Part shown: piece after piece, positions 2,555 through 36,597 of the stretch
Layout of the letters: the number at the start of each line of letters is the position of its first letter
Numbering within the stretch: the first letter of the stretch is position 1
Source: Methylophagaceae bacterium
GTDB lineage: Bacteria > Pseudomonadota > Gammaproteobacteria > Nitrosococcales > Methylophagaceae
Direction: 5' to 3'
Assembly (NCBI GenBank): GCA_041600795.1
Contig: JBFIJJ010000001.1
Coordinates: forward strand, 1-36,597
Length of the DNA: 36,597 bases
The notes under the pieces: model-generated
The model's input: the letters and a program-made list of their open reading frames with translations, nothing else
Told to the model about the DNA's origin: nothing
The model's database searches: none
Made by a program: the position numbers and the translations under genes

Positions 2555-4609
2555 ATGAAATATCATGATCTGGTTCATTCTCTCGCAAAAAAACAAACTA
2601 TAAGCCTGTCAAATCCTATGAAAATAGCTAAAGAAACTATTGATATATCACCGTACCAGTTTCACGACTTAGTTGATGTTGCTGCTTTCACACGAATACT
2701 AGAAAACTTTTTCAAAGCAACCCTGATTCCCAATGGTCTCGTAGCAACCGATGGCCAAATACTCTGTCAATCAGGTTGGGAAAATGCATGCTCCCAATTT
2801 CACCGAGTACACCAACAAACAGCTAAACATTGTGTTGATAGCAATCTGGAACTAATGCAAGGCCTTAAGCACGGAGAAACGTGTGGAAAACTATGCGGTA
2901 ATGGGTTATTGGACTATGCAACGCCGATTGAGATCGAAGGCAAGCAGATTGCGACCCTATTTTTAGGGCAGATATTACACTCACCACCAAACTTAGACTT
3001 CTTTCGTAAACAAGCCAAACAATTCGGCTTCGATGAAGCTGAATACATTGAATCTATTCGCAATATTCCTATCGTAGATAAGGCACATATTGATTCGCTA
3101 ATGGCATGTATTGTTGATATGGCGCAAATGCTGGCACTAAATGGCTTAACAATACTACGCCAAACACAAATGGAACAAGATATTTCCAAACATAAAGAAC
3201 GACAAATACAATTAGAGGATATTCTTGACTCCTCACCCGTTGCAATTGGTTGGTCTAATAGCGTCTCCCATAAAATTGAATATGTAAACCGAAGTTTCCA
3301 ACAATTATTTGGTTATACTTTGAACGACATCCCCGACCTCAATAGCTGGTACAAACTGGCCTACCCCAATAAAGAATTTCGTGAAAACGTTATTTTTCCA
3401 TGGTATCAGAAAGTCGCGCTTGCTAAACAAACTGGAGTTAAACCGCCAGATCTGGAAGCAACCATTACTTGTAAAGATGGTTCAACACGTCGCGTGTTAA
3501 TTCATGTCTCATGGGTTGGACAGAGACGATTAATTAATTTCAGTGATATCACCGAACACTGGTTAACAGAACAACGAATGCAAGCTCATGATGCCATGTT
3601 GGAAATGGTAGCAACAGGTAAATCATTAACAACGATCCTTGATGCTATTGTTAATCAGATTCAATCAGAGGACAAAGAATACTTATGTAACATATTACTT
3701 CTTGATGGAGAAGGTAAACACCTACTCGTAAATGCTTCGTCACCCGATTTACCCGACTTTTTTATTCAGGCAATTAATGGCAAAGAAGTTGGTTACTGTA
3801 GCACCTCAGCTTATCTTGAAGAACGGATAATCACCGAAGATGTTCTGAACCATGAATCTTGGAAACCATATAGCCATATTGCCAAACAGGCAGGTATACA
3901 AGCATGCTGGTCTGAACCCATTATCAATTCGAGAGGTAAAATATTAGGCACATTTTCTATCTATCGGCATAAAAAGGCTATTCCAAGTCAACGGGATATA
4001 GAACTTATGATATTTGCAGCCAATCTTGCCAGTATTGCAATTGAAAGTCACCAAACCCATCAAGAACTTGAGCGCCGAGCTTATTATGACTATCTGACTA
4101 AACTGTCCAATCGGCGCTATTTTCTCAAACTTGCTAACAATGAACTTATCCGTTTGTCTCGTTATGGTAATAAACTTTCAGTTCTAATGATGGATGTTGA
4201 TCATTTCAAACAGGTCAATGATACATATGGACATAATGTCGGTGACATCGTACTAAGAGAACTTGCTCACGTTGCGACCAATACACTGCGTAATGTAGAT
4301 ATTCTCGGTCGTATTGGTGGTGAAGAATTTGCTATTTTGCTTCCAGAAACCTCGGAAGAACAAGCGATAGAAACTGCCGAACGACTGCGCGAAACGCTTG
4401 CTTGTATTGAAATTCCCACACCTAAAGGCCACGCTTTGCACTTTACTGTATCGCTTGGCATCACTTCGGTAGTTGCCAACACCAAAGACAAAGAGCTCAA
4501 TATTGATGTACTTCTCAATCAAGCTGATAAAGCGCTTTATAAAGCCAAAAATAATGGTAGAAACCAAGTTTGTGTATTTGCCACCGACACCACTTCTGAC
4601 ACTATTTAG
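2555..4609 (+). CDS. Diguanylate cyclase with PocR-PAS-GAF-GGDEF architecture
   Basis: 684-aa ORF. The N-terminal Cys-rich PocR-like region reads CQSGWENACSQFH...KHCVDSNL...CGKLCGNGLLDYATPIEIEGKQIATLFLGQ. PAS and GAF-like middle regions follow. The C-terminal GGDEF domain has an active-site GGEEF and an RxxD I-site (RNVD) five residues upstream. Confidence 0.85.
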   Translation: MKYHDLVHSLAKKQTISLSNPMKIAKETIDISPYQFHDLVDVAAFTRILENFFKATLIPNGLVATDGQILCQSGWENACSQFHRVHQQTAKHCVDSNLELMQGLKHGETCGKLCGNGLLDYATPIEIEGKQIATLFLGQILHSPPNLDFFRKQAKQFGFDEAEYIESIRNIPIVDKAHIDSLMACIVDMAQMLALNGLTILRQTQMEQDISKHKERQIQLEDILDSSPVAIGWSNSVSHKIEYVNRSFQQLFGYTLNDIPDLNSWYKLAYPNKEFRENVIFPWYQKVALAKQTGVKPPDLEATITCKDGSTRRVLIHVSWVGQRRLINFSDITEHWLTEQRMQAHDAMLEMVATGKSLTTILDAIVNQIQSEDKEYLCNILLLDGEGKHLLVNASSPDLPDFFIQAINGKEVGYCSTSAYLEERIITEDVLNHESWKPYSHIAKQAGIQACWSEPIINSRGKILGTFSIYRHKKAIPSQRDIELMIFAANLASIAIESHQTHQELERRAYYDYLTKLSNRRYFLKLANNELIRLSRYGNKLSVLMMDVDHFKQVNDTYGHNVGDIVLRELAHVATNTLRNVDILGRIGGEEFAILLPETSEEQAIETAERLRETLACIEIPTPKGHALHFTVSLGITSVVANTKDKELNIDVLLNQADKALYKAKNNGRNQVCVFATDTTSDTI

Positions 4610-19653: not shown

Positions 19654-20277
19654 TTATTTAGATACGGTTATAACCGTATTTTGCGAAACTCTGCTTTGAA
19701 AAAAGCGATAGAGGCGTGGCAGTAATAACACACTAAAAATAGCTGCATACAATAAAGGTTCAGCCTTATCTTGTTTAACCAACATATAAAAATGGACTGT
19801 ACTCGCTATTGCAATAAAATACGTGAGTTGATGCAGTTTTTTCCATCGACGACCGCCTAAACGTTTCACCATTTTATTTGTAGATGTAAGTGCTAAAGGA
19901 ATCAACGCCGAATACGTAAAAAATCCAATAGTAATAAAGGGGCGTTTAATAATATCTTTGACAATTTCATTGATATCAAAAAACTGATCCAGCCCTAAAT
20001 ACAGCAACATATGTAGCGTGGCATAAAAGAAGACATATAGACCCAACATACGTCTAAATGGCACTAAATTAATGTCAAAAAGCCATCTAACTGGCGTAAC
20101 AGCCAAGGTCAAACATAAAAACCGTAACGCCCATAAGCCGCTATCTCTGGTTAATGTTTCGATTGGATTGGCACCAAGTTGGTTAGTCAACAAGCCAATA
20201 ATCATCCAAACCAGCGGTAGCAGGCTAATGATAAATAGAATTACTTTCTGTTTCGACACTGACATGATCATAATCAC
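19654..20277 (-). CDS. msrQ: Protein-methionine-sulfoxide reductase heme-binding membrane subunit MsrQ (YedZ)
   Basis: It is a roughly 200-aa polytopic membrane protein directly abutting the msrP stop. Its profile is YedZ-like (LGANPIETLTRDSGLWALRFL, conserved His in TM helices). The start is ambiguous: GTG 20277, ATG 20271 or ATG 20265. Confidence 0.85.
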   Translation of the reverse strand: MIMIMSVSKQKVILFIISLLPLVWMIIGLLTNQLGANPIETLTRDSGLWALRFLCLTLAVTPVRWLFDINLVPFRRMLGLYVFFYATLHMLLYLGLDQFFDINEIVKDIIKRPFITIGFFTYSALIPLALTSTNKMVKRLGGRRWKKLHQLTYFIAIASTVHFYMLVKQDKAEPLLYAAIFSVLLLPRLYRFFQSRVSQNTVITVSK

Positions 20278-21237
20278 TTAAAAGTATTTTTTTAAATCCA
20301 TACCGGTATATAAATGTGCCACCTCATCGCCATAACCATTAAATAGCTCGGTTTTGCGTTTTAGAAACTCACCAATACGGCGTTCGCGGCTTTGACTCCA
20401 ACGGGGATGATCCACATTTGGATTTACATTCGAATAAAAACCATATTCACGTGGTCCGGCTTTCATCCATGCTGATTCAGGTAGTTTTTCAACAAAACGG
20501 ATATTGACGATAGATTTAATACTTTTGAATCCGTATTTCCAAGGCACTACCAATCTGATCGGTGCGCCATTTTGTCCTAATAATTCACGACCATATAGAC
20601 CAACAGACAATATCGTAAGCGGATTCATGGCCTCGTCCATTCTCAATCCTTCTACATAAGGCCAATCCAACACGGCGCGGCGTTGCCCTGGCATTTGTTC
20701 TGGATCATAAAGCGTAGTGAATTGAACAAATTTAGCTTTAGAGTTTGGTTGTGCTCTTTTAATTAAATCTGCTAGTGGAAAACCGACCCACGGAATAACC
20801 ATCGACCAACCTTCTACACAGCGGAAACGATAGATGCGTTCCTCTAAGGTAAAGGGTCGAATAAGATCGTCATAGTCATATTCTCCCGGCTTATCGCATT
20901 CACCATCGATGGTGACACGCCAAGGTTTACTCTTGTCCGGAAACTCCGTTGCTAAAATTGCTGGCGATGCTTTATCTGTTCCAAACTCGTAGAAATTATT
21001 GTAAGTAGTGACAGAATCATAAGCTGTAGGTGATTCTGTAGCTGAATACTCGCTTTTAACCACGTTTTTAAATGTAGGTTCTGGTGTTTCTGCCGCACGC
21101 ACCAATGAGGTTTGTAACATACTCGCTGTCGCTATCGCAGCAGAACCGTTTAAAAATTGTCTGCGATTAAGATAAACCTTGTGATCGGTGATCTCACTGG
21201 CAGGCATTTCACCTAATCTTTTTTTACGTATGTTCAT
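20278..21237 (-). CDS. msrP: Protein-methionine-sulfoxide reductase catalytic subunit MsrP (YedY, periplasmic molybdoenzyme)
   Basis: It has a Tat signal (NRRQFLNG) and strong collinearity with E. coli MsrP ([65 protein letters not shown]). The ATG at 21237 follows GAGGTGA, while the track start at 21246 is a GTG. Confidence 0.9.
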
Positions 21238-21247
21238 AATAATCACC

Positions 21248-21832
21248 TCAACAGTTTGAGTACTTTTTAGCTAACCAGTAATCAATACTGACATAACGAC
21301 CTGCACCAATAAAAAACAATGTCATCAGCATAATAAAATAGGTTGCAGCGAACTCAATACCATTGTTTAGAATGACAAAACTGCCTTTTTCTGTCAGCCA
21401 CTCATAGTTACCATGTTCTTGTAAAATTGAACGGGCCATTTCAAGTTGTGCACTCGGCTCTGCAATAGCCAGCCAGCCATTCTGCCAATGTACTGTAACA
21501 GCAGCCACAATCATCGTAATCATCAAAGGAATACTGACCCAGCGAACGGCTAAGCCGAGTAATAGCAAAATCGCGCCAAAATATTCTGCACCCCATGCTA
21601 AATAAGCCAATACTTCAGGGAAAGGAAGTCCTAATCCCCAGTCAGCGTTGCCAAACCAGTCAATCACACTATCTAGCGAACTATCTTTATCAAAGGGATT
21701 CCACTTATTATTTGAAGCCATCCAAAAAATAGGCACAAGATAGAGACGTAGTGCTAATGGTGCTAAAAAATCAAGCATCCTCGTTTGATTCAATCCCTGC
21801 TGTAAACGATTGACCATGGTGCAAATAAACAT
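21248..21832 (-). CDS. DoxX-family integral membrane protein, of the type that accompanies HvfA/bufferin RiPP clusters
   Basis: 194-aa ORF with about 4 TM helices and DoxX hallmarks ([33 protein letters not shown]-terminal [12 protein letters not shown]). A good SD (AGGAGA) precedes the ATG at 21832. Confidence 0.75.
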
Positions 21833-21850
21833 GTTTTCTCTCCTATTGCT

Positions 21851-21880
21851 ATAAAAAAGGGCTCAATCAAGAGCCCTTTT
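21851..21880 (-). terminator. Rho-independent terminator/attenuator between the Cys-repeat peptide gene and doxX
   Basis: The minus strand reads AAAAGGGCTC-TTGATT-GAGCCCTTTTTTAT, a 10-bp perfect stem with a GC core, a 6-nt loop and a U-tract. It sits 32 nt after the peptide stop and 19 nt before the doxX start. Confidence 0.7.
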
Positions 21881-21911
21881 CATCACGCTTTATGATTGGG
21901 CTAGATCAATC

Positions 21912-22259
21912 TTATTTTTTGTTAGCACCACATTTTGCTTCGCCACATTTACCTTCTTTCATTTTTTCAGCTTTTTCTTTCATTTCTTCACCGCATTTAG
22001 CTTCCTGGGCTTTTTTCATTTCTTCACCACATTTAGCTTCCTGAGCTTTTTTCATTTCTTCACCACATTTAGCTTCGTGTTCAGCTTTTTTATTTGCGCC
22101 ACAGTTGCCTTCAGCAAGTTGCATATAACCACTTGATAATTCATTTGATGTGAATGGATTTGCATCAGCACTTGCAGTCATTGGTGATAATGCAAGACCA
22201 GCTGTTAATGCTACACTTGCAGCTAATGCGATTGTTGTTTTGTTTGTAGAAATAGACAT
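21912..22259 (-). CDS. Secreted Cys/Met/Lys/Glu-rich tandem-repeat peptide, an HvfA/BufA2-like (6-Cys) putative RiPP metallophore precursor or redox-sink peptide
   Basis: 115-aa ORF with SD AAGGAA. The Sec signal has an AXA site (MTASA/DA). The mature approximately 84 aa contain 6 Cys, every one in an (N/K)-C-G-(E/A) context: EGNCGA, EAKCGE x3, EGKCGE, EAKCGA. It also has 5 Met and no hydrophobic core. Confidence 0.8.
   Translation of the reverse strand: MSISTNKTTIALAASVALTAGLALSPMTASADANPFTSNELSSGYMQLAEGNCGANKKAEHEAKCGEEMKKAQEAKCGEEMKKAQEAKCGEEMKEKAEKMKEGKCGEAKCGANKK
21981..22076. repeat. 36-bp tandem repeat, 2 full copies plus a 24-bp partial copy, encoding the EAKCGEEMKKAQ module
   Basis: Copy 1 is 21981-22016, copy 2 is 22017-22052 and copy 3 is 22053-22076. 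Copies 1 and 2 differ at 2 positions, both synonymous (TGC/TGT Cys, GCC/GCT Ala). Confidence 0.9.
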
Positions 22260-22299
22260 AATATTTTCCTTTAAGTTTAAGTTAGTATAAAAAACAACC

Positions 22300-22313
22300 G
22301 GTCAAACCTGACC
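22300..22313. promoter_or_regulatory. Palindrome GGTCA-N4-TGACC in the divergent sigma/peptide intergenic region (candidate operator)
   Basis: The perfect 5+5 inverted repeat GGTCAAACCTGACC is read directly from the sequence. It overlaps a weak sigma70-like -35 (TTGGTC/TTGACC) on the minus strand. Confidence 0.3.
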
Positions 22314-22327
22314 AAGCTTGCTAACAT

Positions 22328-22353
22328 AGACGCTCTTGATTTCGGATTGTTAC
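22328..22353 (-). promoter_or_regulatory. Candidate ECF-type promoter (GTAAC-N16-CGTCT) directed at the peptide-doxX-msrPQ operon
   Basis: The minus strand reads TGTAAC-AATCCGAAATCAAGAG-CGTCTA, which matches the generic ECF pattern AAC-N16/17-CGT. The implied TSS gives a leader of about 60 nt before the peptide ATG at 22259. This is motif-level evidence only. Confidence 0.3.
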
Positions 22354-22360
22354 AAACGCA

Positions 22361-22978
22361 ATGAATTTTTTTTCTAAATTAAAAAAAAATGATGAATCAC
22401 AACTGATAAAACAGCTTATCGCAGGTGATGAACGCGCGTTTCAACAGGTCGTATCAGAGCACCACAATACGATGTTATCAGTAGCTCGCGCTATTGTTGG
22501 TGACGCTTTTGCTGACGAAGTTGTACAAGATGCATGGATTTCAGCCATTAAAGCCTTACCCCAATTTGAAGGTCGTTCCAGCCTTAAAACATGGTTATTA
22601 CACATTGTATCTAATGGGGCTAAAACGCGAGTTCGCCGAGAAAACCGTATGTCATCGCTAGATGAACATTGGGAATCGGAACCCGCCGACAAATTTGATC
22701 ACACCGGTCATCGCTATGACGATGTTTTACCTTGGGAACAAGCAACGCCCGAGGAAATATTAGCCAATGAGCAGCTACAAACAATTATTGAACAAACTTA
22801 CCAAGAATTGCCCGCGTTACAACGGGCTGCCTTAACTATGTATGATATGGAAGGGATCGAAATGAACGAGATTTGTAACATTCTCTCGATCTCTTCGTCT
22901 AATGTGCGAGTCCTTTTACATAGAGCCCGAACAACGTTGCACCATAAAATTGAACAATATCAACAGAGTGAAAAATAA
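22361..22978 (+). CDS. ECF (group 4) RNA polymerase sigma factor
   Basis: 205-aa ORF with sigma70 region 2 (AGDERAFQQVV...VVQDAWISAIKALPQFEGRSSLKTWLLHIVSN) and region 4 (LPALQRAALTMYDMEGIEMNEICNILSISSSNVRVLLHRAR). Confidence 0.9.
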   Translation: MNFFSKLKKNDESQLIKQLIAGDERAFQQVVSEHHNTMLSVARAIVGDAFADEVVQDAWISAIKALPQFEGRSSLKTWLLHIVSNGAKTRVRRENRMSSLDEHWESEPADKFDHTGHRYDDVLPWEQATPEEILANEQLQTIIEQTYQELPALQRAALTMYDMEGIEMNEICNILSISSSNVRVLLHRARTTLHHKIEQYQQSEK

Positions 22979-23226
22979 TGTACCAATGTAAAGACATTGC
23001 CGATGAAGTAAACAACTATATTGATGGCGATTTAGCCCTCGGTAAACGCATCGGGCTATTTTTTCATCTGTTGATTTGCAGTTGCTGCCGGAATTATTTG
23101 CAACAAATTCGCTCTACGATATCTATCGTTACCGTTGCTCGTCCAAAAGAACAAGACGGCACTGACATAGATTCATTAGCTAAACGTTTACATAGTCTAT
23201 GCCATGAAGAGCATGACCATCATTAG
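22978..23226 (+). CDS. Zinc-finger (ZAS, zf-HC2) anti-sigma factor, short soluble form with a His-rich tail
   Basis: 82-aa ORF whose start overlaps the sigma stop (TAATG). It has an HxxxCxxC motif (H30-LLI-C34-SC-C37) plus Cys4. No TM segment is present. The C-terminus is LCHEEHDHH. Confidence 0.7.
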   Translation: MYQCKDIADEVNNYIDGDLALGKRIGLFFHLLICSCCRNYLQQIRSTISIVTVARPKEQDGTDIDSLAKRLHSLCHEEHDHH

Positions 23227-23468
23227 ATTTGATATTTATCTTTCCATTCTTGATATGGCATGCCGTAGATAATTTCACGCGCTTGCTCATAATTTAGATC
23301 CAAGCCTTTTTGCTCAGCTTCAGCTAAATACCACTTTGCGAGGCAATTACGGCAAAAGCCTGCTAAATCCATCAGATCTATATTTTGAACATCTGTACGC
23401 TCAGCTAGATGTGCTAGTAAACGACGAAATGCCGCCGCTTCAAGTTCAAGTTGTGTTTGTTTATCCAT
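23223..23468 (-). CDS. DUF1244-family small protein
   Basis: 81-aa ORF. The sequence (AAAFRRLLAHL...GFCRNCLAKWY...GMPYQEWK) matches my memory of the conserved DUF1244 family. It starts 12 nt after the ABC ATPase stop. Confidence 0.6.
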   Translation of the reverse strand: MDKQTQLELEAAAFRRLLAHLAERTDVQNIDLMDLAGFCRNCLAKWYLAEAEQKGLDLNYEQAREIIYGMPYQEWKDKYQI

Positions 23469-35787: not shown

Positions 35788-36597
35788 ATGGCCGAAGAAA
35801 TTGATGACGAGATGCTTGAAATTGACTCCAACGGTAGAGATGGAGATTCTGAAGAAAACAATTCAGGTGGAAAACTAGCCCGTATTAAAGCGTTACTTTC
35901 TAATAGAATTATTCTTATTTCAATCATTTCAGTGTTGATTATCTTGCTTGCCGTAGGTGCTTATTTCATCTTTTTCACCGGAAATGATGAAGCCACAGAC
36001 ACAGAAATAACCGAACTTAGTGGGGAAGTTGCAACACAACCAGATATGATGGCGCCACCACAATCTGAAGACAACTCTAGCGCATTTTTATCTGCAATCA
36101 GTGAAAATTCAAACTCACCTGATTCCGAACAAATCAGTAATAGTGACGGCACTGATGGCGACAAACCATCACGCGTCTCTCAAATATCCAATGGCATGGT
36201 TGAGGCTGCAAAAACAGGTGGATTTCCTACTGCTGATAGTGCAAGTGGCGCCGCTAATACAGTATCAGATCAAATGCCAGCCGAGACACCTGAATCAAAA
36301 CAACTATCAGAATTACTCAATGAAAAAGTAGCGGAACTAGAAGCCGAAAACCAAAGGCTTAAACAACAAATCTCAAATTTGGATATCCAAATTAAGCTAT
36401 ACAAAAATGCAAAACGCGCTGAGGATTTAAGTATCCCTGTTGATAGATTTGATTCCAATGCAATTACCAGTCCTGCTCCTTATAATGATGGCTTAGTCAA
36501 TGATTTTAGTAGTGACTACTCTGCATCACCCTATGCTGATGATGAAATGACCCCAAAACCAACTTGGGGTGATGCTAAACCTGATCAGAACAAATAA
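35788..36597 (+). CDS. Hypothetical bitopic membrane protein with an acidic N-terminus, one TM, a Ser/Asp/Asn-rich disordered region and a coiled coil
   Basis: 269-aa ORF with a strong SD (AGGAG, 7 nt upstream). The TM is IILISIISVLIILLAVGAYFIFF and the heptad-like segment is LSELLNEKVAELEAENQRLKQQISNLDIQIKLY. The stop codon is the last 3 nt of the window. I recognise no family. Confidence 0.5.
   Translation: MAEEIDDEMLEIDSNGRDGDSEENNSGGKLARIKALLSNRIILISIISVLIILLAVGAYFIFFTGNDEATDTEITELSGEVATQPDMMAPPQSEDNSSAFLSAISENSNSPDSEQISNSDGTDGDKPSRVSQISNGMVEAAKTGGFPTADSASGAANTVSDQMPAETPESKQLSELLNEKVAELEAENQRLKQQISNLDIQIKLYKNAKRAEDLSIPVDRFDSNAITSPAPYNDGLVNDFSSDYSASPYADDEMTPKPTWGDAKPDQNK

What the first reader, a model, noticed from the sequence alone, without database searches (positions are those of the whole stretch)
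19654..23226. ECF sigma / soluble ZAS anti-sigma divergent from a 6-Cys KCG-repeat secreted peptide - DoxX - MsrP - MsrQ operon: an HvfA/bufferin-like precursor with no MNIO or DUF2063 maturase beside it
Seen in the sequence: the peptide gene, a terminator, doxX, msrP and msrQ are co-directional with 2-80 nt gaps. An ECF sigma factor and an HxxxCxxC anti-sigma are transcribed divergently from a 101-bp intergenic region. Established knowledge: Sec-exported peptides with repeated (E/A)(G/A)KCG motifs and 6 or 12 Cys are the precursors of the HvfA (Haemophilus) and bufferin (BufA2, Caulobacter) copper-binding RiPPs. In those systems an MNIO enzyme (DUF692, HvfB/BufB) with a DUF2063 partner (HvfC/BufC) converts Cys into oxazolone/thioamide or thiooxazole groups, and a DoxX gene is a common accessory. 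Here the DoxX gene is present but DUF692 and DUF2063 are absent from the whole 36.6-kb window; the periplasmic Met-sulfoxide repair system MsrPQ sits in that position. A partly analogous published system is Azospira suillum SigF/NrsF controlling YedY-YedZ plus the Met-rich periplasmic peptide MrpX, a sacrificial hypochlorite sink. Inference: this may be an undescribed envelope oxidant/copper defence module. A Cys+Met-rich periplasmic peptide would act as sink or chelator and be recycled by DoxX (thiol/quinone) and MsrPQ (Met-SO), under a redox- or metal-sensing ZAS anti-sigma. Alternatively it is a split HvfA system whose maturases are encoded elsewhere.
Basis: partly seen in the sequence, partly recalled or inferred. 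Interest (0 to 1): 0.85.

Follow-up and report, generated by a model that had tools for sequence, protein, structure and literature searches.

The report
Stress-controlled copper-peptide operon lacking its maturase
A marine methylotroph carries a known kind of stress-switched operon for a secreted cysteine-rich copper-binding peptide. It is fused to a periplasmic methionine-repair system and lacks the two enzymes that normally modify the peptide, an unusual variant of a described system rather than a new one.

Summary

The peptide belongs to the HvfA / Buf_EGKCG (oxazolin) family, not BufA2. The DoxX protein is an HvfX. MsrP and MsrQ are canonical. The regulator pair is an ECF sigma factor with a small ZAS anti-sigma.

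No MNIO or DUF2063/HvfC coding potential exists in the window or in about 25 related loci. The whole arrangement is syntenic across Methylophagaceae, including the cultured Methylophaga frappieri JAM7.

A conserved promoter, TGTAAC-N16-CGTCTA, sits before the peptide gene. It resembles the published Neisseria sigma-E promoter. The same motif precedes hvfA in canonical MNIO-containing clusters.

ECF/ZAS control of hvf clusters together with methionine sulfoxide reductases is already published for Neisseria and Haemophilus. Caulobacter SigF/NrsF does the same for bufferin operons and YedY. msrP-type genes inside such clusters have been noted. "Undescribed module" is therefore overstated.

Whether hvfBC lie elsewhere in these genomes could not be determined here. 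I put it at about 55:45 for "elsewhere".

Verdict: a new variant of a known kind, of moderate interest.

The parts
19654..20277 (-). msrQ, the haem-b membrane subunit that passes quinol electrons to MsrP
   Evidence: NCBIfam NF003831 scores 171.9 bits (cutoff 130) and Pfam Ferric_reduct matches. The true start is probably a few codons downstream of the longest ORF, because relatives are 197-202 aa.
20278..21246 (-). msrP, the periplasmic molybdopterin protein-methionine-sulfoxide reductase; it carries an RRQFL Tat motif
   Evidence: NCBIfam NF003767 scores 467.8 bits (cutoff 207) and Pfam Oxidored_molyb matches.
21248..21832 (-). hvfX, the DoxX-family membrane protein of HvfA-type clusters
   Evidence: NCBIfam NF050144 (HvfX family equivalog) scores 232.6 bits (cutoff 80) and Pfam DoxX matches. 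It is 58% identical to the DoxX of the P. aeruginosa pPALO11 sigma-ZAS-hvfA-DUF692-DUF2063-DoxX cluster.
21853..21880 (-). intrinsic-terminator-like hairpin plus T-run between the peptide gene and hvfX; a likely attenuator that gives an excess of peptide transcript
   Evidence: Sequence. A GC-rich hairpin followed by a T-run occupies the same position in 20 of 20 related loci, with different stem sequences in Methylophaga sensu stricto.
21912..22259 (-). hvfA-family precursor: a Sec-exported 115-aa peptide with the N-terminal core motif NPFxSxELSSGYMQLAEG, then 6 KCG-type Cys and 5 Met
   Evidence: NCBIfam NF050137 (HvfA family, KCGExKCG_twice) scores 44.5 bits (cutoff 19.5). The strict HvfA equivalog NF050188 scores only 26.8 against a cutoff of 95. 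It is 43% identical to the pPALO11 hvfA product. The peptide has 821 homologues.
22298..22315 (-). short hairpin in the 5' leader of the peptide mRNA, followed by a T-run; role unclear
   Evidence: The sequence is conserved in 19 loci, but the consensus fold is weak (-1.68 kcal/mol, one compensatory pair).
22327..22354 (-). ECF-type promoter of the peptide operon: TGTAAC-N16-CGTCTA
   Evidence: Only 2 matches to the relaxed pattern GTAAYN{15,17}GTCTA occur in the 36.6-kb window, against 0.21 expected. GTAAC-N17-GTCT is present upstream of the peptide gene in every Methylophagaceae locus that includes this region. It is also upstream of hvfA in the MNIO-containing clusters of pPALO11 and pAURM-2. 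It resembles the Neisseria sigma-E consensus GTMAGBWTT-N12-13-CGTCTAAH (PMC2893595).
22361..22978 (+). ECF sigma factor
   Evidence: TIGR02937 scores 87.9 bits (cutoff 42.9) and Pfam Sigma70_r2 and r4_2 match. It is 40% identical to the sigma factor of the pPALO11 hvf cluster.
22875..22901 (+). second copy of the same promoter motif, inside the 3' end of the sigma gene about 77 nt before the anti-sigma start; a likely sigma-dependent promoter for the anti-sigma gene (negative feedback)
   Evidence: In 15 distinct sigma genes the four third-codon positions inside the -35 and -10 elements are 100% conserved, against 2 of 52 neighbouring third positions.
22978..23226 (+). small soluble ZAS anti-sigma factor (C4, H30-x3-C34-x2-C37) with a Cys/His-rich C-terminal tail
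   Evidence: NCBIfam NF052368 scores 48.6 bits, just under its cutoff of 50. The M. frappieri orthologue hits Pfam zf-HC2. The four candidate zinc-ligand positions (C, H, C, C) are invariant in 22 homologues. It is 32% identical to the zf-HC2 protein of the pPALO11 cluster.

Best explanation
This is the Methylophagaceae version of the ECF-sigma/ZAS-controlled hvf (oxazolin-type) envelope stress cluster, fused to msrPQ and lacking hvfB/hvfC at the locus.

Proposed working:
1. Thiol-reactive stress (hypochlorite-like oxidants, peroxide, possibly copper) inactivates the zinc-binding anti-sigma. This step is inferred from the family.
2. The freed ECF sigma uses the TGTAAC-N16-CGTCTA promoter. The motif and its conservation are shown; its use is inferred.
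3. The peptide gene is transcribed heavily. Partial read-through of the terminator gives lower levels of hvfX-msrP-msrQ. The anatomy is shown; the stoichiometry is inferred.
4. A second copy of the promoter inside the sigma gene raises anti-sigma expression and shuts the response off. Selection on the DNA is shown; the function is inferred.
5. The peptide is exported by Sec and buffers Cu(I) and/or oxidants in the periplasm through its KCG cysteines (or heterocycles derived from them) and its methionines.
6. MsrPQ uses quinol electrons to re-reduce methionine sulfoxide in periplasmic proteins, the peptide included.
7. HvfX is a quinone-pool-linked partner of the peptide of unknown chemistry.

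On maturation, I think it somewhat more likely than not (about 55%) that an MNIO/HvfC pair encoded elsewhere still converts the cysteines.
For: -
- Sigma, ZAS, HvfA and HvfX are 40, 32, 43 and 58% identical to the matching genes of the canonical sigma-ZAS-hvfA-DUF692-DUF2063-DoxX cluster on P. aeruginosa pPALO11. A. ursingii pAURM-2 has the same gene set.
- The flanking order …DUF1244-ZAS-sigma <-> peptide(s)-hvfX-msrP-msrQ-aceE… recurs in loci whose HvfX is 67-94% identical. These include M. frappieri JAM7 CP003380.1, two MAG chromosomes and a 2.59-Mb contig.
- The promoter motif occurs 27 times in about 665 kb of these loci (both strands), always at the same two positions. It is shared with MNIO-containing clusters and is close to the Neisseria sigma-E consensus.
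- The terminator is conserved in 20 of 20 loci.
- Published regulons with the same logic: the N. meningitidis sigma-E operon NMB2140-2145 (doxX, three hypotheticals, rpoE, the ZAS MseR) plus msrAB. H. influenzae RpoE2/HrsE gives HOCl-induced, RpoE2-dependent doxX-DUF692-DUF2063 genes plus msrAB. The Caulobacter SigF regulon comprises YedY plus the two bufferin operons.
- For maturation elsewhere: the family-wide core motif NPF…(E/Q)L..GY and the invariant xCG context are kept as strictly in Methylophagaceae peptides as in MNIO-linked ones. The N-terminal region is thought to serve HvfC recognition (PMC11252979). Only 67 of 2583 complete genomes with Buf_EGKCG precursors lack any MNIO (PMC12452194).
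Against: - There are no expression data, so induction, promoter use and read-through are all inferred.
- No MNIO or HvfC gene was found in any of the roughly 25 Methylophagaceae loci (±8-10 kb).
- No second HvfX locus appeared for the 16 Methylophagaceae genomes in the GTDB scan.
- Every Methylophagaceae-like peptide homologue whose context I examined sat at the same syntenic locus.
- The conserved N-terminal motif stays in the mature peptide, so it could be conserved for a reason other than HvfC binding.
- The role of HvfX is unknown. DoxX is dispensable for modification and for copper protection in Caulobacter (PMC11626156).
Confidence: 0.6

Rival explanations
1. MNIO-independent module. Methylophagaceae have no hvfB/hvfC anywhere. 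The KCG peptide works unmodified, through thiolates and methionines, as a periplasmic Cu(I)/oxidant buffer. HvfX (cysteine side) and MsrPQ (methionine side) keep it functional using the quinone pool. Regulation is as in the best explanation.
For: - The maturase genes are absent from every Methylophagaceae locus, whereas 35 of the other 64 HvfX loci in the GTDB sample carry MNIO and/or HvfC next to HvfX.
- msrPQ follows hvfX exactly where hvfBC lie in A-X-B-C clusters (L051, L058, L064, L069, L071, L080).
- The genomes are small, 1.95-2.7 Mb.
- Unmodified HvfA also binds several Cu(I) ions in vitro (PMC11252979).
- 67 complete genomes with such precursors and no MNIO are on record.
Against: - Absence from the rest of the genome was not tested.
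- The published base rate of MNIO-less genomes is only 2.6%.
- Strict retention of the xCG context and of the N-terminal core motif across lineages fits continued recognition by HvfC/MNIO.
- Six or more free cysteines in an oxidising periplasm would be prone to disulfide formation (general knowledge).
Confidence: 0.4
2. MrpX-like sacrificial methionine sink. As in Azospira suillum (SigF/NrsF, YedY1-YedZ1, MrpX), the peptide mainly consumes hypochlorite through its methionines and MsrPQ regenerates it. The cysteines would be secondary.
For: msrPQ is in the same operon, the window peptide has 5 Met in about 84 mature residues, and some orthologues have 8-12 Met. The published precedent is PMC4436054.
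Against: - Met content is not conserved, since L023, L024, L027 and a copy in L017 have 1-2 Met, whereas the KCG cysteines are invariant.
- MNIO-linked homologues without adjacent msrPQ are as Met-rich or richer (L079 16, L036 14, L043 and L060 12).
- The anti-sigma is a soluble ZAS, not NrsF/DUF1109.
- The peptide is a homologue of HvfA, not of MrpX.
Confidence: 0.1
3. Chance adjacency. The peptide-hvfX pair and msrPQ are unrelated neighbours and the small ORF is a low-complexity artefact.
For: Some sources annotate the peptide only as a "low-complexity protein". A terminator separates it from hvfX.
Against: - The adjacency holds in about 25 loci down to 67% HvfX identity, with 0-30 nt hvfX-msrP gaps.
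- The peptide has a signal peptide, a ribosome-binding site, a dedicated conserved promoter and an NCBIfam family match.
- An independent lineage has MNIO-HvfC-HvfX-MsrP (L033).
- The literature notes such genes in Buf_EGKCG clusters.
Confidence: 0.03

Closest known systems
Neisseria meningitidis sigma-E operon NMB2140-NMB2145 (doxX, three hypothetical genes, rpoE, ZAS anti-sigma MseR) with msrA/msrB as second target (PMC2893595, PMC3240639)
   Same: An ECF sigma with a small cytoplasmic ZAS anti-sigma sits next to a DoxX-containing cluster that H. influenzae work equates with doxX-hvfA-hvfB-hvfC (PMC7907618). A methionine sulfoxide reductase belongs to the same regulon. The promoter is of the same type (GTAA…-N12-13-CGTCTA).
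   Different: In Neisseria the cluster holds three further genes, one operon also contains sigma and anti-sigma (positive autoregulation), and the reductase is MsrAB at a distant locus. Here hvfBC are missing, the reductase is MsrPQ inside the operon, the sigma/ZAS pair is divergent, and only the anti-sigma appears sigma-dependent.
Haemophilus influenzae hvf operon (HvfX-HvfA-HvfB-HvfC, oxazolin) under RpoE2/HrsE (PMC11252979, PMC7907618)
   Same: An HvfA-family Sec-exported KCG-repeat peptide and an HvfX are present. Control is by a hypochlorite/peroxide-responsive ECF sigma with a ZAS anti-sigma, together with periplasmic methionine sulfoxide repair.
   Different: The Haemophilus peptide is modified by adjacent HvfB (MNIO) and HvfC. 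The window peptide misses the strict HvfA equivalog cutoff (26.8 against 95 bits), has different repeats (EAKCGEEMKKAQ), and has no maturase nearby.
Buf_EGKCG/oxazolin gene clusters surveyed in PMC12452194
   Same: The precursor family is the same. The core genes occur "in various combinations". A small number of clusters carry oxidored_molyb or ferric-reductase genes. Bufferin-type precursor genes away from MNIO genes are recorded, and 67 of 2583 Buf_EGKCG genomes have no MNIO.
   Different: That survey was anchored on MNIO genes. It did not describe a lineage-wide, syntenic, MNIO-less peptide-hvfX-msrPQ operon with its own ECF/ZAS pair.
Caulobacter SigF/NrsF regulon (buf1, buf2, YedY/MsrP) (PMC3511200, PMC11626156)
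   Same: An ECF sigma co-induces Sec-exported Cys-containing copper-binding peptides, a DoxX and a YedY/MsrP-type reductase under metal or oxidative stress.
   Different: The precursor families differ (DUF2282, Buf_6/12Cys). The anti-sigma is the membrane protein NrsF (DUF1109). The genes lie in three separate units, and MNIO and DUF2063 are present.
Azospira suillum SigF/NrsF - YedY1-YedZ1 - MrpX (PMC4436054)
   Same: An ECF-controlled operon joins MsrPQ-type genes with a small periplasmic peptide containing sulfur amino acids.
   Different: MrpX is a methionine-rich peptide unrelated to HvfA and has no KCG cysteines. The anti-sigma is NrsF, and there is no DoxX.

Membership tests
HvfA family / Buf_EGKCG-oxazolin precursors | Match to the family model (repeated KCG motifs) above the curated cutoff | tested here: met
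   NF050137 scores 44.5 bits against a cutoff of 19.5, in 3 stretches.
HvfA family / Buf_EGKCG-oxazolin precursors | Sec signal peptide followed by the conserved core N-terminal motif NPF…(E/Q)L..GY | tested here: met
   The motif is shared with about 30 MNIO-linked homologues and with the pPALO11 HvfA.
HvfA (strict equivalog, H. influenzae type) | Score above the equivalog cutoff | tested here: not met
   NF050188 scores 26.8 bits against a cutoff of 95.
hvf / oxazolin biosynthetic gene cluster | MNIO (DUF692, PF05114; HvfB) encoded next to the precursor | tested here: not met
   tblastn with 3 MNIO seeds found no hit better than E about 2 in the window or in the loci, and none in the 16 GTDB Methylophagaceae-type loci. 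No PF05114 is recorded in L013, L096 or L098.
hvf / oxazolin biosynthetic gene cluster | DUF2063/HvfC partner protein encoded next to the precursor | tested here: not met
   The same searches with 3 HvfC seeds were negative. Pfam on the window ORFs was negative.
hvf / oxazolin biosynthetic gene cluster | MNIO and HvfC present somewhere in the same genome | not testable with these tools
   The window is a 36.6-kb contig. Whole genomes of relatives cannot be scanned here. An MNIO protein search lists only its 120 best hits, none on the marker contigs.
hvf / oxazolin biosynthetic gene cluster | HvfX-type DoxX protein in the cluster | tested here: met
   NF050144 scores 232.6 bits against a cutoff of 80.
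hvf / oxazolin RiPP | Cysteines converted to oxazolone/thioamide or 5-thiooxazole | not testable with these tools
   This needs mass spectrometry or NMR of the native peptide.
BufA2 (Buf_6/12Cys) bufferins | Match to a Buf2-type model; a 6-Cys domain that is not built of KCG repeats | tested here: not met
   Only the two HvfA models matched in NCBIfam at E<=0.01, and Pfam gave nothing. I did not verify that the NCBIfam copy holds a BufA2-type model. PMC12452194 treats Buf2 and Buf_EGKCG as separate families. Cys number varies from 6 to 14 among orthologues.
MsrPQ | MsrP and MsrQ equivalog scores above cutoff; adjacent genes; Tat motif on MsrP | tested here: met
   The scores are 467.8 against 207 and 171.9 against 130 bits. 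An RRQFL motif is present.
ECF sigma with ZAS anti-sigma (sigma-E/RpoE2/SigR type) | ECF sigma domain architecture | tested here: met
   TIGR02937 scores 87.9 against 42.9 bits, and Sigma70_r2 plus r4_2 match.
ECF sigma with ZAS anti-sigma (sigma-E/RpoE2/SigR type) | Small soluble anti-sigma with C/H-x23-26-H-x3-C-x2-C | tested here: met
   C4-x25-H30-x3-C34-x2-C37 is invariant in 22 homologues. The motif definition is from PMC7907618. NF052368 scores 48.6 against a cutoff of 50, just under.
ECF sigma with ZAS anti-sigma (sigma-E/RpoE2/SigR type) | Redox (or metal) release of sigma and induction of the target operon | not testable with these tools
   This needs expression and biochemical experiments.
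Azospira SigF/NrsF-YedYZ-MrpX system | NrsF (DUF1109) membrane anti-sigma and an MrpX-type Met-rich peptide | tested here: not met
   The anti-sigma is a soluble ZAS protein. The peptide is an HvfA homologue with variable Met content.

The most novel reading that the evidence does not exclude
Methylophagaceae as a whole have lost the MNIO/HvfC maturases. They keep, under strong selection and ECF/ZAS control, an unmodified HvfA-type KCG peptide with HvfX and MsrPQ. The ancestral functional core of these widespread clusters would then be a peptide-HvfX pair: a redox-recyclable Cys/Met periplasmic buffer tied to the quinone pool. MNIO chemistry would be an add-on. This would also give the first handle on what HvfX/DoxX does.
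Probability: 0.4. Interest if true: 0.6.

Novelty: new variant of a known kind. Interest (0 to 1): 0.4.

Why it matters
HvfA/bufferin-type peptides are a very large, recently recognised class of periplasmic copper-binding RiPPs, and the role of their DoxX/HvfX gene is unknown. This bacterial family has kept peptide, HvfX and the stress regulator but replaced the maturase genes at the locus with MsrPQ, which makes it a natural experiment.

If no MNIO exists in these genomes, the peptide and HvfX must work without the heterocycle chemistry. That would redirect thinking about the function of HvfX and about how much of the system concerns oxidant repair rather than copper.

If the maturases are elsewhere, this is an ordinary split cluster. 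It is still a clean example in which the sigma-E/RpoE2-type regulon (metallophore plus methionine repair) is condensed into one operon.

Methylophaga frappieri JAM7 is cultured and has a complete genome, so both outcomes are directly testable.

Tried and rejected
Attempts to decide whether MNIO/HvfC exist elsewhere in these genomes all failed:
- The exact HvfX of the window is on record only on a 2.2-kb Logan contig, and the window is itself a 36.6-kb contig.
- The supplements of PMC12452194 held here contain accession lists only, with no Methylophaga names. The per-genome table is not held. PMC11252979 has no held supplements.
- Literature searches for Methylophaga with DUF692, MNIO, bufferin or UPF0276 gave nothing relevant.
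- A protein search used the MNIO of L014, the only MNIO-linked peptide among the window peptide's 120 best homologues. It returned Arenicellales, Thiohalomonadales and unnamed hits. None was on the marker contigs of 2,697,465, 2,589,453, 1,950,064 or 2,046,928 bp. This is uninformative because only 120 of at least 8000 hits are listed.
- Three further Methylophagaceae-like peptide homologues whose context I looked up (P0226, P0169, P0228) lay at the same syntenic locus, so no second locus was found.
- A viral-contig scan with an MNIO alignment found nothing.

Ideas rejected:
- A BufA2 assignment.
- Met-richness as a signature of MsrPQ linkage.
- A structured RNA in the 5' leader. Rfam gave nothing meaningful and the alignment fold is weak.
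- Pseudogene remnants of hvfBC between the peptide gene and hvfX, or between hvfX and msrP. The gaps are 79 and 1 nt and tblastn is negative.

Full report
**Observation.**
- msrQ is at 19654-20277 and msrP at 20278-21246, both on the minus strand.
- A DoxX gene is at 21248-21832 and a 115-aa peptide gene at 21912-22259, also on the minus strand.
- An ECF sigma gene (22361-22978) and an 82-aa anti-sigma gene (22978-23226) lie on the plus strand, across a 101-bp intergenic region.
- The peptide has a Sec-type signal (…TASA|DANPF) and six cysteines, all in xCG context.
- A GC-rich hairpin with a T-run lies between the peptide gene and the DoxX gene.

**Family assignments.**
- The peptide passes the NCBIfam HvfA-family domain model NF050137 (44.5 bits, cutoff 19.5). 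It fails the strict HvfA equivalog (26.8 against 95).
- The DoxX protein is a clear HvfX (NF050144, 232.6 against 80).
- MsrP (467.8 against 207) and MsrQ (171.9 against 130) are canonical.
- The sigma factor is an ECF sigma.
- The anti-sigma carries C4-x25-H30-x3-C34-x2-C37, the ZAS pattern as defined in PMC7907618. These residues are invariant in 22 homologues.
- In the literature the KCG-repeat peptides form the Buf_EGKCG/oxazolin family, which is kept apart from BufA2 (Buf_6/12Cys) (PMC12452194). Six cysteines is incidental, because orthologues have 6-14.

**No maturase at the locus.** tblastn used MNIO and DUF2063/HvfC seeds from three canonical clusters: P. aeruginosa pPALO11, A. ursingii pAURM-2 and metagenomic locus L014. 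It found nothing in the window or in any related locus. Pfam on the remaining large window ORFs found neither family. The gaps are 79 nt (peptide to hvfX) and 1 nt (hvfX to msrP), which leaves no room for gene remnants.

**Conservation.** The closest HvfX homologues carry Methylophaga, Methylophagaceae or Piscirickettsiaceae names.
- Every neighbourhood I examined, at 67-94% HvfX identity, has the same gene order. It runs gyrA-(serC)-pheA-lytB-ABC transporter-DUF1244-ZAS-sigma <-> peptide (one or two tandem copies)-hvfX-msrP-msrQ-aceE-aceF-lpd.
- These loci include the complete chromosome of the cultured Methylophaga frappieri JAM7 (CP003380.1) and a 2.59-Mb contig.
- A scan of GTDB species representatives with an HvfX alignment kept the 80 best loci. 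I classified them by tblastn.
  - 16 are of this Methylophagaceae type, with no MNIO or HvfC. Two of them are MAG chromosomes, OX044353.1 and OZ244743.1.
  - 35 have MNIO and/or HvfC next to HvfX.
  - 29 have HvfX without either in the fetched stretch.
- msrP next to hvfX occurs only in the Methylophagaceae type and in one Thiohalomonadaceae MAG (L033), whose order is MNIO-HvfC-HvfX-MsrP.
- Six loci have the order peptide-HvfX-MNIO-HvfC. In them the maturase genes occupy the position that msrPQ holds here.

**Regulation.** The pattern GTAAYN{15,17}GTCTA occurs twice in the 36.6-kb window against 0.21 expected, and both copies lie in this locus.
- The first copy is TGTAAC-N16-CGTCTA at 22327-22354 on the minus strand, facing the peptide gene.
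- Across about 665 kb of Methylophagaceae loci (both strands), GTAAC-N17-GTCT occurs 27 times, always at the same two positions.
- The same motif precedes hvfA in the MNIO-containing clusters of pPALO11 and pAURM-2.
- It is close to the published Neisseria sigma-E consensus, -35 GTMAGBWTT, 12-13 nt, -10 CGTCTAAH (PMC2893595). Here the sequence is GTAACAATC-N12-CGTCTATG.
- The window's sigma, ZAS, HvfA and HvfX are 40, 32, 43 and 58% identical to their pPALO11 counterparts. That cluster reads sigma-ZAS-hvfA-DUF692-DUF2063-DoxX.
- The second copy lies inside the 3' end of the sigma gene, about 77 nt before the anti-sigma start. In 15 distinct sigma genes its four third-codon positions are fully conserved, against 2 of 52 neighbouring third positions. 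This indicates selection on the DNA and suggests a sigma-dependent promoter for the anti-sigma gene, that is, negative feedback.
- A terminator-like hairpin follows the last peptide gene in 20 of 20 loci, with different stems in different lineages. This fits high peptide expression with attenuated read-through into hvfX-msrPQ.

**What is already known.**
- In N. meningitidis, the sigma-E operon NMB2140-2145 holds doxX, three hypothetical genes, rpoE and the ZAS anti-sigma MseR. Its only other clear target is msrA/msrB.
- In H. influenzae, RpoE2 with the 67-aa ZAS anti-sigma HrsE controls msrAB. It also controls, after HOCl, the doxX-COG3767-DUF692-DUF2063 cluster. That cluster was later shown to be the hvf/oxazolin cluster (PMC11252979).
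- In Caulobacter, the SigF regulon is YedY (MsrP-type) plus the two bufferin operons, including DoxX.
- PMC12452194 notes that a small number of Buf_EGKCG clusters carry oxidored_molyb or ferric-reductase genes. For the Buf1 and Buf2 bufferins it reports that sizeable proportions of precursor genes lie away from MNIO genes.
- The same paper reports that 67 of 2583 complete genomes with Buf_EGKCG precursors have no MNIO gene.

**The open point.** I could not find out whether hvfB/hvfC exist elsewhere in these genomes. No whole-genome search is available, the held supplements give accession numbers only, and the one MNIO protein search lists only its 120 best hits.
- *For a split system:* the base rate of genomes with no MNIO is low. 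The family-wide core motif NPF…(E/Q)L..GY and the xCG context are kept as strictly here as in MNIO-linked peptides. The N-terminal region is thought to serve HvfC recognition.
- *For true absence:* the maturases are missing from every locus of a whole bacterial family, and msrPQ sits in their place. The genomes are small. No second HvfX locus turned up for 16 genomes, although that scan was truncated. The three Methylophagaceae-like peptide homologues I looked up all sit at the syntenic locus. Unmodified HvfA binds Cu(I) in vitro.
- I put this at about 55:45 in favour of maturases elsewhere.

**Methionine content.** It does not single out this operon. Orthologues range from 1 to 12 Met, and MNIO-linked homologues without adjacent msrPQ reach 12-16. 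This argues against a primarily MrpX-like sacrificial methionine sink.

**Mechanism I commit to.**
1. Oxidant or thiol-reactive stress releases the ECF sigma from the ZAS anti-sigma.
2. The sigma fires the TGTAAC-N16-CGTCTA promoter.
3. The peptide is made in excess, exported by Sec, and buffers Cu(I) and/or oxidants through its cysteine-derived and methionine ligands.
4. Read-through supplies HvfX and MsrPQ. MsrPQ repairs methionine sulfoxide in the periplasm.
5. The internal promoter restores the anti-sigma.

The anatomy, the homologies and the sequence conservation are shown here. Induction, stoichiometry, metal binding and the role of HvfX are inferred.

**Verdict.** This is a new, lineage-wide variant of a known system rather than an undescribed module. 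Interest is moderate (0.4). It would rise to about 0.6 if the maturases prove to be absent from the whole genome.

Noticed in passing
window 22875-22901 (+), inside the sigma gene: A second copy of the ECF promoter motif (GTAACATT…CGTCTAA) lies about 77 nt upstream of the anti-sigma start. Its synonymous positions are invariant in 15 distinct Methylophagaceae sigma genes, against 2 of 52 neighbouring third-codon positions. It is absent from Methylophaga sensu stricto (L013, L028-L030) and from the Pseudomonas and Acinetobacter clusters. It is probably a sigma-dependent promoter for the anti-sigma gene.
   Followed up: yes
window 23170-23226 (anti-sigma C-terminus); homologues in L002, L003, L009, L010, L017, L020, L022: The anti-sigma ends in a Cys/His-rich tail (KRLHSLCHEEHDHH; pattern LHxxCxxHxH, sometimes with Y for C). 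The tail is conserved in the window's subclade but absent from Methylophaga sensu stricto and from canonical hvf-cluster anti-sigmas. It could be a second metal-sensing site.
   Followed up: partly
L002 9003-9866, L003 9012-9866, L010, L017, L019, L096: Many relatives carry two tandem peptide genes where the window has one. In several of these loci (L002, L003, L017, L019) the downstream copy has a conserved C-terminal tail after the last KCG, …AK(K/A)(V/I/L)D(K/N/D)(A/N)F(L/M)S(N/Q)N.SY..(A/V)(M/L)GK. Its function is unknown.
   Followed up: partly
window 22298-22315 (-), 5' leader of the peptide mRNA: A short hairpin (TTGGTCA…TGACCGG) followed by a T-run sits just downstream of the promoter. 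The sequence is conserved in 19 loci, but covariation support is weak and the T-run is missing in Methylophaga sensu stricto. It could be a leader attenuator, a stabilising stem or a protein-binding palindrome.
   Followed up: partly
L002 7222-8205; L011 6778-7393 and L012 3185-3800: In the 2.59-Mb contig an IS30-like transposase gene (HTH_38, rve) is inserted between the sigma and anti-sigma genes. In another lineage the sigma gene is called as three fragments (85, 55 and 51 aa). The regulator pair may be disrupted in some genomes, or these may be assembly errors.
   Followed up: no
window 21660-21710 (hvfX codons ~42-56); alignment A2: Methylophagaceae HvfX proteins carry a 6-residue insertion (…[13 protein letters not shown]…) that Pseudomonas and Acinetobacter HvfX lack. 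It contains an NPF tripeptide like the peptide's core motif. The window's subclade also lacks a 12-residue loop that M. frappieri and the canonical HvfX have.
   Followed up: no
L031 (Thiocapsa marina 5811) versus L055 (Thiocapsa sp. MAG): Within one genus, one genome has HvfX and a nearly identical 96-aa KCG peptide with no MNIO/HvfC within 10 kb. The other has MNIO and HvfC about 3 kb from HvfX. Loss or relocation of the maturase genes is therefore not unique to Methylophagaceae.
   Followed up: no
window 23223-23468 (-): A DUF1244 gene converges on the anti-sigma gene, overlaps its end by 4 nt, and keeps this position in all related loci. No functional link is evident.
   Followed up: no
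window 2555-4609 (+) and 35788-36597 (+): A PocR-PAS-GAF-GGDEF sensor diguanylate cyclase lies at 2555-4609. The 269-aa ORF at the right end of the window has no Pfam match.
   Followed up: no
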